Below are positions 10,832 to 11,017 of a stretch of 64,000 nucleotides of DNA, one piece after another. The position numbers and the translations under genes are program-made. Positions within the stretch are counted from its first letter, which is position 1, and each line of letters starts with the position of its first letter. This DNA is from a plasmid, in assembly GCF_056712565.1 (NCBI RefSeq), contig NZ_JBWXXM010000004.1, one strand, 5' to 3'. The notes under the pieces are model-generated. The model was not told the origin of the DNA. It did not search any database and saw only the letters and a program-made list of their open reading frames with translations.

Positions 10832-10859
10832 ATCGCCTCAATGAATCGTGATTTATAGA

Positions 10860-11017
10860 GCGATTTAGCTGTTAGCCGCGACAGGCGCGGCGGTAAGCAT
10901 GGCTGGGCCTAGCCCTCCCAGACAAACCACCGAGTTGCCAGGTTGACCATGCGCCTAAGTGGCAACGCCGAAGTGCGTTACGAGCTTCCAGTTTGCCCAT
11001 CTTCGGGTGGGCGTTTT
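10860..11017 (+). ncRNA. candidate structured small RNA ending in an intrinsic terminator
   Basis: No credible ORF; nested hairpins (CTGGG..CCCAG, GTTGCCA..TGGCAAC) and GCCCATCTTCGGGTGGGCG followed by TTTTTTT at about 10985-11017. Confidence 0.3.

What the first reader, a model, noticed from the sequence alone, without database searches (positions are those of the whole stretch)
10832..11017. Operator-controlled structured RNA candidate with intrinsic terminator between dmt and tRNA-Asn
Directly after a bipartite palindromic C1-operator-like site comes about 150 nt of hairpin-rich sequence with no plausible ORF, ending in a GC stem and a T7 run. That is the layout of a repressor-controlled small RNA or leader, possibly regulating read-through into the tRNA-tci-ban unit.
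Basis: seen in the sequence. Interest (0 to 1): 0.45.

Follow-up and report, generated by a model that had tools for sequence, protein, structure and literature searches.

The report
Phage leader RNAs targeting host tmRNA
The flagged stretch is the repressor-controlled, DicF-like leader RNA of phage P1's ban operon (already annotated). Four bases past its terminator starts an unannotated RNA, shared by about 290 phages, that is antisense to the host ribosome-rescue RNA (tmRNA) and carries its own 10-codon tag template.

Summary
The window is a P1-like phage (98.6% identical to NC_005856). The C1 operator Oban/Op72ab (10804-10831) overlaps the ban promoters. About 180 nt of non-coding leader follow, ending in a 7-bp GC stem with a UUCG loop and T7 (10995-11020).

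The P1 record already labels this a "dicF-like region". I found that 10876-10970 is 76% identical to the 5' extension of the 190-nt DicF precursor of Qin-type prophages, with compensatory changes in two of its three hairpins. The 3' domain is not DicF: there is no Rfam match and no ftsZ complementarity.

The larger result lies just downstream. Positions 11024-11198 belong to an unannotated RNA family found in 293 phage records and 659 of 5426 E. coli genomes. It contains:
- a resume-type GCA codon and a conserved 10-codon tag frame (ANDDLMMVAA in P1);
- a stop codon inside a small hairpin;
- two pseudoknots supported by covariation;
- no tRNA-like domain.

Its 5' domain of about 48 nt is antisense to host tmRNA nt ~54-108 (P1: -46 kcal/mol). 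For 30 of 31 distinct family variants, no shuffle out of 200 matched the observed energy.

My best reading is that it docks on host tmRNA, blocks the host tag template and presents its own. That mechanism is inferred, not shown.

The parts
10788..10833 (+). ban promoters: P2ban (-35 at 10788-10793, -10 at 10814-10819) and P1ban (-35 TTGCTC at 10805-10810, -10 TAATAT at 10828-10833). The inferred transcription start is near 10840.
   Evidence: Mapped from the NC_005856 annotation onto the window sequence. The generic sigma-70 scan does not call it, because the -35 matches only 3 of 6.
10804..10831 (.). Bipartite C1 repressor operator Oban ab (former Op72ab).
   Evidence: protein_bind features of the P1 record. 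The sequence ATTGCTCTAATAAATTT and its inverted partner are read.
10876..10970 (+). DicF-precursor-like structured segment with three hairpins (10876-80/10886-90, 10903-07/10917-21, 10934-40/10960-66).
   Evidence: 76% identity to the Qin segment 24-120 nt upstream of dicF. A homologue is present in 4197 of 5426 E. coli genomes. Compensatory changes are seen in alignment A1. The segment lies inside the 190-nt RNase III form of DicF.
10971..10994 (+). Predicted single-stranded stretch (AAGUGCGUUACGAGCUUCCAGUUU), a candidate seed of the P1-specific 3' domain.
   Evidence: Folding. It occupies the position that DicF holds in Qin but is not similar to DicF. No target was found: ftsZ, the window itself.
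10995..11020 (+). Intrinsic terminator: 7-bp stem, UUCG loop, G, then T7. It also forms the 5' boundary of the downstream RNA.
   Evidence: Conserved in P1, P7, SJ46 and D6. D6 shares it although its upstream sequence is unrelated.
11024..11071 (+). Anti-tmRNA domain (GGUUUUCGUC...CUGACCA), predicted to pair with host tmRNA nt 56-106.
   Evidence: RNAduplex gives -46.3 kcal/mol against -24.4 +/- 4.0 for shuffles, with 0 of 200 shuffles as good. Pairing is drawn. GUUUUCGUC is the reverse complement of tmRNA GACGAAAAC (tag codons 3-5).
11072..11081 (+). Roughly 10-12 nt unpaired linker ending in UAAAU, immediately before the resume codon.
   Evidence: The linker is 10-12 nt in 23 of 31 family variants. 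UAAAU is invariant in alignment A2, but part of the sample was fetched with a pattern that contained it.
11082..11114 (+). tmRNA-type tag frame: GCA AAC GAT GAT CTG ATG ATG GTA GCG GCC TAA = ANDDLMMVAA*.
   Evidence: Rfam tmRNA_permuted alignment. ARAGORN at a lowered threshold. Ten codons plus stop are conserved in all homologues. The frame is open in 21 of 21 distinct sequences, while the other two frames are closed in 20-21 of 21.
11108..11120 (+). Small hairpin (GGC/GCC) with the stop codon in its loop, like tmRNA helix 5.
   Evidence: Read from the sequence. It is only 67% paired in alignment A2 because of register shifts.
11128..11162 (+). Pseudoknot a: S1 ACGGGG/CCCCGT (11128-33/11145-50) and S2 GTCG/CGAC (11139-42/11159-62).
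   Evidence: the count of structure pairs on A2: S1 is 95% paired and S2 98% paired, and all four S2 pairs covary. The same columns covary in an independent MAFFT alignment.
11163..11198 (+). Pseudoknot b: Sa CGCAG/CTGTG (11163-67/11179-83) and Sb CCCCGT/ACGGGG (11173-78/11193-98).
   Evidence: Sa is 91% paired and Sb 78-82% paired, with changes on both sides. P1-type rows are misaligned by MAFFT, so the P1 pairs were read directly from the sequence.
11196..11289 (+). Long irregular hairpin that opens with the repeated motif CACAACAGGTAAGGG. It acts as a spacer between RNA cassettes.
   Evidence: MFE -45.9 kcal/mol, z -4.9. Homologous hairpins follow the element in KFS-SE2, ZCKP8 and phiEa2809.

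Best explanation
The dmt to tRNA-Asn spacer of P1 is the leader of the C1-repressed ban operon. It holds two RNA modules.

Module 1 is the finding itself (about 10840-11020). After C1 is lost, Pban fires. The first ~180 nt form a structured RNA homologous to the 5' part of the 190-nt DicF precursor of Qin-type prophages, and it ends at a leaky intrinsic terminator. By analogy with DicF it may be trimmed by RNase III or RNase E to a short RNA of about 50 nt. Its 3' domain is P1-specific and its target is unknown.

Module 2 (11024-11198) is made from read-through transcripts. Its 5' ~48 nt base-pair with host tmRNA nt ~56-106. That stretch covers the 3' half of PK1, the spacer, the resume codon and tag codons 1-5. 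About 11 nt after the duplex, module 2 presents its own UAAAU-GCA resume site, a 10-codon tag (ANDDLMMVAA), a stop-codon hairpin and two pseudoknots. It has no tRNA-like domain.

The most likely mechanism is as follows. Module 2 docks on host tmRNA and silences the host tag template. The intermolecular duplex takes the place of PK1. Ribosomes rescued by the host tRNA-like domain and SmpB then resume on the phage template, so the phage rewrites the tag.

Status of each step:
- Shown here: the anatomy, conservation, covariation, coding signature and complementarity.
- Taken from annotation and literature: C1 control.
- Inferred: read-through, processing, docking and tag swapping.
For: Module 1
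- The operator and promoters match the P1 record, which also marks a 'dicF-like region'.
- 10876-10970 is 76% identical to the Qin segment just upstream of dicF. Hairpins 2 and 3 show compensatory changes.
- That Qin segment lies inside the 190-nt RNase III form of DicF, which comes from a repressor-controlled polycistronic transcript.
- The terminator is present.
- There is no conserved ORF.

Module 2
- Homologues occur in 293 phage records from unrelated groups, including Ackermannviridae, Schitoviridae, Drexlerviridae and Punavirus. They also occur in lambdoid prophages and in 659 of 5426 E. coli genomes.
- Every homologue has a 10-codon AND...(A/V)A frame. It is open in 21 of 21 distinct sequences, the other frames are closed, and the last Ala codon uses all four third-position bases.
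- The structure is 88% paired, against 31-48% when partners are slid. It has 90 cells changed on both sides against 26 in shuffles, with 0 of 500 shuffles as high.
- No tRNA-like domain: default ARAGORN finds none. The complete CS01 genome has no tRNA, tmRNA or T-arm. No Rfam family reaches its threshold in 13 loci.
- Antisense domain: for 30 of 31 distinct 5' domains, 0 of 200 shuffles matched the observed energy. The median z is -6.3, with 36-43 bp on tmRNA ~54-108 and a 10-12 nt linker in 23 of 31.
- With 180 decoy targets and with dinucleotide shuffles, none reached the observed energy for Bp4, CS01, KFS-SE2 and L105.
- The Bp4-type variant (GAUUAU in place of GACUUU) keeps pairing through a different register.
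- The 5' domain pairs far worse with the phage's own tag region: -14 to -19 against -33 to -39 kcal/mol.
- The seed GUUUUCG is constant while the phages' own codons 3-5 vary.
- Sigma-70 promoters (TTGACA-17-TAGATT) place the RNA 5' end 5-6 nt before the seed in KFS-SE2 and ZCKP8.
- From the literature: PK1 can be replaced by a hairpin, the five nucleotides upstream of the resume codon set the frame, and tags are typically 10 residues.
Against: - There are no expression or end-mapping data for either module, and the one P1 transcriptome paper I found does not mention them.
- The module 1 MFE is not better than shuffles (z -0.88). There is no Rfam DicF match. No target was found.
- A strong terminator directly upstream of module 2 would limit its synthesis from Pban, and I found no separate promoter in P1.
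- A first scan with 25-nt sliding windows against whole tmRNA was no better than shuffled tmRNA: -27.3 against -27.9 +/- 2.5. With a 40-nt domain against whole tmRNA, P1 was matched by 1 of 150 shuffles and 2 of 180 decoys.
- RNAduplex ignores the structure of PK1, bound SmpB and S1, and the partial self-pairing of the phage 5' domain.
- Tag swapping has no precedent. The phage tags still end in AA or VA, so the benefit is unclear.
- Part of the family sample was fetched with a pattern that fixed positions -5 to +9. The members found by BLAST (phiEa2809, ZCKP8) show the same features.
Confidence: 0.55

Rival explanations
1. Module 2 is only an antisense inhibitor or decoy of trans-translation. 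It pairs with tmRNA and blocks tagging (or titrates S1, SmpB or RNase R), and its own tag frame is never translated.
For: The complementarity to tmRNA 54-108 is the best-supported feature. There is no tRNA-like domain to deliver a template. A TLD-only phage tmRNA is reported to inhibit host tmRNA.
Against: The tag frame has a coding signature: exactly 10 codons, open in 21 of 21 sequences, synonymous third positions, and an AA or VA ending. UAAAU-GCA lies a constant 10-12 nt after the duplex. A stop-codon hairpin and two covarying pseudoknots are also kept. A pure antisense RNA needs none of these.
Confidence: 0.25
2. The flagged segment is just an untranslated operon leader with an attenuator. 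No discrete, functional small RNA is made, and the similarity to the dicF locus is a recombination relic.
For: The MFE is not better than chance. No target was found. There is no DicF model match. D6 lacks 10832-10991 yet keeps the rest of the locus.
Against: Three hairpins are kept, two with compensatory changes, against homologues found in 4197 E. coli genomes. The layout matches the 190-nt DicF species: a structured 5' part, a single-stranded stretch and a terminator.
Confidence: 0.3
3. The hairpin at 10995-11012 is not primarily a terminator. It is a structural part of module 2: either a 5' protective hairpin or the closed remnant of the acceptor stem of a permuted tmRNA gene.
For: In D6 the hairpin stays with module 2 although the upstream sequence is unrelated. 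Many family members have some hairpin just 5' of the seed. It has 7 bp with one G-U pair and lies where canonical permuted phage tmRNA genes have their acceptor strands.
Against: A UUCG loop followed by T7 is a textbook terminator. The hairpins of other lineages differ in length and distance and lack U-runs. KFS-SE2, ZCKP8 and L012-type phages have a promoter there instead. There is no T-arm upstream.
Confidence: 0.15
4. Module 2 is a decaying pseudogene of a captured tmRNA, or a complete (two-piece) tmRNA whose acceptor piece was missed.
For: Weak tmRNA-family hits (24 bits against a cut-off of 47). ARAGORN calls tmRNA at 80-90% thresholds, including Bp4 with an adjacent tRNA-like element. 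Canonical permuted tmRNAs exist on viral contigs.
Against: Conservation with covariation across about 290 phages rules out decay. The low-threshold ARAGORN tRNA-like domains differ from call to call and lack G3:U70. Many members have no T-arm within 700-1000 nt, and CS01 has none in its whole genome.
Confidence: 0.05
5. The region encodes a protein: the minus-strand 110-aa ORF at 10872-11204, annotated as hypothetical in SJ46 and JL22.
For: The ORF exists in this window, and some records annotate a CDS there.
Against: It is split between two frames in reference P1 and in SJ46, and it is absent as a frame in unrelated family members. The conservation pattern is that of RNA helices.
Confidence: 0.02

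Closest known systems
DicF sRNA locus of Qin-type prophages (190-nt and 53-nt forms)
   Same: Both sit in a repressor-controlled prophage operon. The structured 5' segment is homologous (76% identity, compensatory changes). Both end in an intrinsic terminator that is followed by further operon genes. The overall length is about 180-190 nt.
   Different: The 3' effector domain is unrelated to the 53-nt DicF. There is no Rfam RF00039 match, no notable ftsZ complementarity and no dicB downstream. The repressor is C1 rather than DicA.
tmRNA (SsrA), mRNA-like domain and pseudoknot ring
   Same: Both have an Ala resume codon preceded by U(-5)A(-4), a 10-codon tag AND...AA, a stop codon in a helix-5-like hairpin, and H-type pseudoknots downstream.
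   Different: Module 2 has no acceptor stem, no G3:U70, no T-arm and no CCA. PK1 and helix 2 are replaced by a domain antisense to host tmRNA. Its scores are below all tmRNA model thresholds.
Two-piece (permuted) tmRNAs, including phage-encoded ones such as Melnitz and the viral contigs of group B
   Same: A coding piece that depends on base pairing with a separate RNA carrying the aminoacylated end. The same UAAAU-GCAAACGA resume context. Phage-borne.
   Different: In known two-piece tmRNAs both pieces come from one precursor and pair through the acceptor stem and helix 2. Here the presumed partner is the host's own intact tmRNA, and the pairing targets its tag region.
TLD-only tmRNA of mycobacteriophage DS6A
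   Same: A phage-encoded partial tmRNA thought to interfere with host trans-translation.
   Different: It is the complementary half. DS6A keeps the tRNA-like domain and lacks a tag. Module 2 keeps the tag and lacks the tRNA-like domain.
Synthetic anti-ssrA oligonucleotides used to block tagging in cell-free translation
   Same: Both are antisense to the start of the tmRNA tag template. From my own recollection, the oligonucleotide used in ribosome display contains GTTTTCGTCGTTTGCGAC. Anti-tmRNA oligonucleotides are mentioned in papers listed.
   Different: Module 2 is natural and imperfectly paired, extends into PK1, and is fused to a replacement template.

Membership tests
DicF sRNA (Rfam RF00039) | Sequence and structure match to the 53-nt DicF model | tested here: not met
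   No DicF hit at E<=1 over 10000-14000 or at E<=10 over 10800-11490. Alignment A1 shows that the 3' domains diverge.
DicF sRNA (Rfam RF00039) | Homology of the precursor segment upstream of the mature sRNA | tested here: met
   76% identity over 97 nt to Qin. Compensatory changes in two hairpins.
DicF sRNA (Rfam RF00039) | 3' end formed by an intrinsic terminator inside a repressor-controlled polycistronic operon | tested here: met
   Terminator at 10995-11020. The C1 operator and the downstream tRNA-tci-ban genes are annotated. DicF biogenesis is described.
DicF sRNA (Rfam RF00039) | Antisense complementarity to the ftsZ translation start region | tested here: not met
   RNAduplex of 10971-11020 against ftsZ -80..+60 gives z +1.3 relative to shuffles. 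This is a crude test.
DicF sRNA (Rfam RF00039) | [quoted passage not shown] | not testable with these tools
   Needs Northern blots or primer extension in rnc and rne mutants.
tmRNA (SsrA) | tRNA-like domain: acceptor stem with G3:U70, T-arm, 3' CCA | tested here: not met
   Default ARAGORN finds none. Calls at 80% threshold are mutually inconsistent and lack G3:U70. The CS01 genome has no T-arm.
tmRNA (SsrA) | Internal tag frame that starts at an Ala resume codon without a Shine-Dalgarno sequence or AUG and ends in hydrophobic ...AA plus stop | tested here: met
tmRNA (SsrA) | Pseudoknots flanking the tag frame | tested here: inconclusive
   Two downstream pseudoknots are supported by covariation. 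No PK1 equivalent was found upstream. That region is instead antisense to host tmRNA.
tmRNA (SsrA) | Score at or above the Rfam gathering threshold for a tmRNA family | tested here: not met
   24.1 bits against a cut-off of 47 (RF04321) and 14.1 against 84 (RF01850). No hit in 13 homologous loci.
Two-piece (permuted) tmRNA | Acceptor piece (T-arm plus CCA) and coding piece (5' acceptor strand GGGG..., GGAUUCGAC motif) encoded in one precursor | tested here: not met
   Canonical examples were found on viral contigs. The P1 family lacks the acceptor strands, and promoters start the RNA at the seed.
Trans-acting base-pairing (antisense) sRNA | A conserved region with significant complementarity to a defined target site | tested here: met
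   For 30 of 31 variants, 0 of 200 shuffles matched. The target is always tmRNA ~54-108.
Trans-acting base-pairing (antisense) sRNA | Physical interaction with the target and a regulatory effect on it | not testable with these tools
   Needs EMSA or structure probing, RIL-seq, and tagging assays.
C1-controlled P1 operon (Op72/Pban) | 17-bp C1 operator overlapping the promoter | tested here: met
   Exact consensus operator at 10804-10820 and an inverted partner ending at 10831.

The most novel reading that the evidence does not exclude
Enterobacterial phages of many families (P1-like, lambdoid, T1-like, N4-like, ViI-like) encode a 'tag-swap' RNA. This is a tmRNA coding module without a tRNA-like domain. 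It base-pairs with the host's own tmRNA over about 40 bp in place of PK1, silences the host ANDENYALAA template, and makes ribosomes rescued by host TLD-SmpB resume on a phage-specified tag (for example ANDDLMMVAA). In effect it would be a trans-assembled two-piece tmRNA, half host and half phage. In P1 it is switched on by loss of the C1 repressor.
Probability: 0.4. Interest if true: 0.95.

Novelty: new variant of a known kind. Interest (0 to 1): 0.8.

Why it matters
Trans-translation is the main ribosome-rescue and quality-control pathway of bacteria and is a drug target. The literature searched here describes only phages that carry complete tmRNAs or a TLD-only fragment.

A widespread phage RNA that targets the tag template of host tmRNA and supplies its own would be a new way for a virus to reprogram host protein quality control. 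It would also be a natural example of an RNA template being exchanged by base pairing.

It would explain a conserved, unannotated non-coding block found in P1, in the Q-S late regions of lambdoid and Stx-type prophages, and in many therapeutic-candidate phages of Escherichia, Salmonella and Klebsiella.

The idea can be tested directly by mass spectrometry of tagged non-stop reporters, and by seed mutations combined with compensatory ssrA mutations.

For the flagged segment itself, the result ties the P1 'dicF-like region' to the 190-nt DicF precursor. It suggests a family of prophage RNAs that share a 5' scaffold but carry different 3' effector domains.

Tried and rejected
- Rfam match to DicF or any other family in the leader: none above threshold.
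- P1 3' domain as an ftsZ antisense RNA: no better than shuffles.
- Targets of the 24-nt single-stranded stretch inside the 64-kb window: one 11-mer found against 0.43 expected, which is chance.
- Complete or permuted tmRNA in P1: ARAGORN calls one only at an 80% threshold. It then gives two incompatible tRNA-like domains, has no G3:U70 and places the terminator inside the gene.
- A tRNA-like domain supplied by nearby T-arm modules (P1 11636-11732, PhiSH19, L094, L125, Bp4 'tRNA-Cys'): these are variable, absent from many members and absent from the whole CS01 genome.
- Long-range helix between the 5' region and the sequence after pseudoknot b, checked by eye: not conserved.
- First duplex test with 25-nt sliding windows against whole tmRNA: not above the null. 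The signal appeared only when the whole 5' domain was used.
- Protein-coding reading of the minus-strand ORF: rejected.
- Literature: no paper in the library mentions these tags, a P1 tmRNA-like RNA or a phage anti-tmRNA RNA. The P1 genome paper (PMC523184) is not held.
- Host-specific co-variation with non-enteric tmRNAs (Aeromonas, and the unknown hosts of L012 and L017): not done, because I had no host tmRNA sequences.
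Full report
**Identity of the window and check of the observation**

The region is P1-like: 98.6-98.7% identical over 10700-11700 to Escherichia phage P1. dmt ends at 10813. tRNA-Asn starts at 11486 and tRNA-Thr at 11563.

I mapped the annotation of NC_005856 onto the window.
- The divalent C1 operator Oban ab (former Op72ab) is at 10804-10831.
- P1ban has its -35 at 10805-10810 and its -10 (TAATAT) at 10828-10833, so transcription should start near 10840.
- P2ban lies just upstream.
- A misc_feature called "dicF-like region" covers about 10928-11029.

The GC stem, UUCG loop and T7 are at 10995-11020. The predicted hairpin energy is -12.8 kcal/mol.

The + strand has only 32-33 aa ORFs. 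The 110-aa minus-strand ORF is frameshifted in reference P1 and in SJ46.

**What the flagged segment is**

A sensitive search of 10832-11030 against 5426 complete E. coli genomes found two groups of matches.
- Full-length copies occur on P1-like plasmids.
- A match of about 76-78% identity to 10876-10970 occurs in 4197 genomes.

In a K-12 strain the second match lies between ydfC and dicB of the Qin prophage, 24-120 nt upstream of dicF.

Alignment with four prophage copies and two P1-like copies (A1) shows three conserved hairpins. Two of them carry compensatory changes:
- CTGGG/CCCAG against CGGGG/CCCCG;
- GTTGCCA/TGGCAAC against GTTGTCA/TGACAAC.

DicF is cut from the DicA-repressed polycistronic dicBF transcript. 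RNase III gives a 190-nt form and RNase E a 53-nt form. The P1-homologous part lies inside the 5' extension of the 190-nt form.

P1 therefore has the same layout: a repressor-controlled start, a structured 5' scaffold, a single-stranded stretch and a terminator, about 180 nt in all.

The 3' domain, however, is not DicF.
- There is no Rfam hit.
- Only a faint resemblance exists between the P1 terminator arm and the DicF 5' end.
- There is no special complementarity to the ftsZ start region.
- No target turned up within the window.

I conclude that the finding is a DicF-locus-type leader or small RNA. It is already flagged in GenBank, and its effector function is unknown.

**The unexpected neighbour**

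A permissive Rfam scan gave a weak hit to permuted tmRNA at 11009-11114 (24 bits, below the cut-off of 47). Its alignment rested on a tag-like frame: GCA AAC GAT GAT CTG ATG ATG GTA GCG GCC TAA, which reads ANDDLMMVAA*. For comparison, the E. coli tag is ANDENYALAA.

ARAGORN finds no tmRNA at default settings. At an 80% threshold it reports this tag with two incompatible tRNA-like domains.

A sensitive BLAST of the spacer against 50,697 phage records showed that window ~11024-11217 is conserved at 70-88% identity in 282-293 records. These come from unrelated groups:
- Ackermannviridae: phiEa2809, PhiSH19, Magnus, phiMAM1;
- N4-like Schitoviridae: Bp4, ECBP1, KP8, Pollock;
- Drexlerviridae and relatives: CS01, KFS-SE2, ZCKP8;
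- an Aeromonas phage;
- P1, P7, SJ46 and D6.

The element is never annotated. It lies in non-coding DNA, often within or next to tRNA genes.

It also occurs in the Q-to-holin late leader of lambdoid E. coli prophages. Overall it is present in 659 of 5426 E. coli genomes, at 582 plasmid places and 140 chromosomal places.

**Anatomy of the family**

Every homologue has a frame of exactly 10 codons plus a stop, placed right after ...UAAAU. Examples are ANDDVVLMAA, ANDDLMLMAA, ANDNTFLAVA, ANEEMYLAVA and ANDNEFKVAA.

Among 21 distinct nucleotide versions:
- the frame is always open;
- the other two frames contain stops in 20-21 of 21;
- the last Ala codon uses all four third-position bases.

This is a coding signature.

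Downstream, on a 27-sequence MAFFT alignment (A2), the structure I propose has a stop-codon hairpin and two H-type pseudoknots. The counts are:
- 88% of cells paired, against 31-48% when the partners are slid by 1-3 columns;
- 90 cells changed on both sides, against 26 +/- 4 in shuffles, with 0 of 500 shuffles as high;
- stem S2 of the first pseudoknot 98% paired, with all four pairs covarying.

Independent column statistics gave the same pairs.

In P1 the elements are P5 at 11108-10/11118-20, PKa at 11128-11162 and PKb at 11163-11198. A long hairpin follows at 11196-11289 (z -4.9).

**No tRNA-like domain**

- Default ARAGORN recognises 33 canonical permuted tmRNAs among viral contigs that share the same resume context. 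Inspected examples (L059 among them) show G3:U70, CCA and a GGAUCGAC-type motif. Phage tmRNAs of this kind are known.
- It does not recognise the P1 family, apart from one dubious 748-nt call that borrows neighbouring tRNAs.
- T-arm-like modules occur near some members: P1 at 11636-11732, and PhiSH19, L094, L125 and Bp4. They are variable, and many members have none within 700-1000 nt.
- The complete 48-kb CS01 genome has no tRNA, tmRNA or credible T-arm.
- No Rfam family reaches its threshold on the element in 13 loci.
- In KFS-SE2 and ZCKP8 a TTGACA-17-TAGATT promoter ends 12-13 nt before the conserved motif (A/G)GUUUUCGU, so the RNA should start 5-6 nt before it. In L012 I read a TTGACA-17-TATAGT promoter that does the same.

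**The 5' domain is antisense to host tmRNA**

GUUUUCGUC is the exact reverse complement of GACGAAAAC, which forms codons 3-5 of the enterobacterial tmRNA tag.

I used RNAduplex with an E. coli ssrA sequence (L139).
- The whole 5' domain of the P1 RNA (11024-11071) pairs with tmRNA nt 56-106 at -46.3 kcal/mol. Shuffles give -24.4 +/- 4.0.
- Across 31 distinct family variants, 30 had 0 of 200 shuffles as good. The median z is -6.3.
- Each forms 36-43 bp, always on tmRNA ~54-108. That site covers the 3' half of PK1, the spacer, the resume codon and codons 1-6.
- Ten to 12 unpaired nucleotides remain before the phage's own resume codon in 23 of 31. By my reading of the sequence, the PK1-to-resume spacer of tmRNA has a similar length.

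Several controls support this.
- With dinucleotide shuffles and 180 decoy targets, none reached the observed energy for Bp4, CS01, KFS-SE2 and L105. P1, tested with a shorter 40-nt domain, was matched by 1 of 150 shuffles and 2 of 180 decoys.
- The Bp4-type variant changes GACUUU to GAUUAU and still pairs, now with AUAGUC.
- The domain pairs much worse with the phage's own tag region: -14 to -19 against -33 to -39 kcal/mol.
- The seed is constant while the phages' own codons 3-5 vary. It therefore tracks the host sequence, not the phage's own.
- An early test with 25-nt windows against whole tmRNA was not significant.
- RNAduplex ignores competing structure and bound proteins.

**Mechanism**

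Three facts come from the literature.
- PK1 can be replaced by a simple hairpin.
- The five nucleotides upstream of the resume codon set the frame through SmpB.
- PK2-4 are dispensable for tagging.

On that basis the simplest model that uses all the conserved parts runs as follows. The phage RNA docks on host tmRNA. The intermolecular duplex occludes the host template and stands in for PK1. The phage's UAAAU-GCA site, tethered about 11 nt from the duplex, is loaded into the decoding centre after the host tRNA-like domain and SmpB have accepted the nascent chain. The phage tag is then added.

I put about 0.7 on the antisense interaction being functional and about 0.4 on actual tag swapping. The inhibitor-only rival stands at about 0.25.

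The benefit to the phage is unknown. The tags keep AAND and a hydrophobic ...AA or ...VA end, but they change the residues that ClpX (LAA) and SspB read.

In P1 the RNA must come from Pban read-through of the terminator. Read-through is required in any case for C1-controlled ban expression, as stated in the annotation. It parallels dicF followed by dicB.

**Relation between the two modules**

The terminator sits 4 nt before the anti-tmRNA seed. D6 shares the hairpin and everything downstream but not 10832-10991. So the hairpin is linked to module 2 at least as much as to module 1. Whether it terminates transcription, protects a processed 5' end, or does both is open.

**Novelty**

The flagged segment is already annotated as dicF-like. 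What is new for it is the link to the 190-nt DicF precursor scaffold.

Module 2 is not in Rfam 15. It is not in the tmRNA database papers, which list phage tmRNAs but not P1. It is not in a 2025 review of phage sRNAs. No full-text hit turned up for its tags or its concept.

The library lacks most subscription papers, including the P1 genome paper, so prior mention cannot be excluded.

Noticed in passing
window 11203-11217, 11640-11655 and 11852-11870; also L140/L141 1420-1490: The motif CACAACAGGTAAGGG(C/T)A opens long hairpins three times in the P1 ban leader. It also occurs in lambdoid Q-S regions and after the element in KFS-SE2, ZCKP8 and phiEa2809. The motif looks like a shared spacer or processing module between RNA cassettes, and possibly a recombination point.
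   Followed up: partly
window 11636-11732: Just after tRNA-Thr lies a very stable hairpin (-42 kcal/mol, z -5.4). It encloses a canonical T-arm (GAGGGTTCGAATCCCTA) but has no open acceptor end, and ARAGORN does not call it a tRNA. A near-identical module follows the tmRNA-like element in viral contig L125.
   Followed up: partly
window 11296-11485: About 190 nt of unexplained conserved sequence lies before tRNA-Asn and is shared with D6 and SJ46. It includes a degenerate T-arm-like hairpin (CAGGGTTGTGCATCCCCTG). ARAGORN at a 70% threshold calls a pseudo tRNA-Gly at about 11400-11472.
   Followed up: no
window 12413-12528: Sub-threshold Rfam hit to the Gammaproteobacterial sRNA STnc100 (39.8 bits against a cut-off of 47, E 2e-6). 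It lies on the + strand just upstream of and overlapping the start of tciA.
   Followed up: no
loci L020-L129 (IMG/VR contigs): Thirty-three viral metagenome contigs fetched with TAAATGCAAACGAT carry canonical permuted (two-piece) tmRNA genes by default ARAGORN. In the examples inspected, the acceptor stem has G3:U70, CCA is encoded, a single pseudoknot follows the tag, and an ORF often starts right after it.
   Followed up: partly
L003 (phage Bp4) 1673-1751 and 1310-1381: The annotated 'tRNA-Cys(aca)' directly after the element has poor acceptor and anticodon stems, and ARAGORN at 90% threshold uses it as a tmRNA 3' domain. An unannotated tRNA-Ala(cgc)-like gene lies about 165 nt upstream of the tag.
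   Followed up: partly
L009 (PhiSH19) about 1700-1815 compared with L015/L016: After pseudoknot b, PhiSH19 carries an insertion of about 150 nt that contains a T-arm followed by AAACGGC-T-CCA. Close relatives lack it. This suggests mobile tRNA-like cassettes next to the element.
   Followed up: no
window 11014-11020: The terminator U-run is T7 in this window and in several P1-like genomes, T6 in reference P1 (NC_005856) and T8 in SJ46. This length polymorphism could tune termination.
   Followed up: no
L011 (SJ46) 1665-1982, minus strand; JL22 record: Some P1-like records annotate a hypothetical protein on the minus strand across the leader and the tmRNA-like RNA. The frame is not conserved, so these CDS calls are probably spurious.
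   Followed up: yes
L132 (Qin) about 1465-1475: The Qin segment upstream of the DicF scaffold contains TTTTCGTCGAC, the same 8-mer as the anti-tmRNA seed. This is probably coincidence and was not examined.
   Followed up: no
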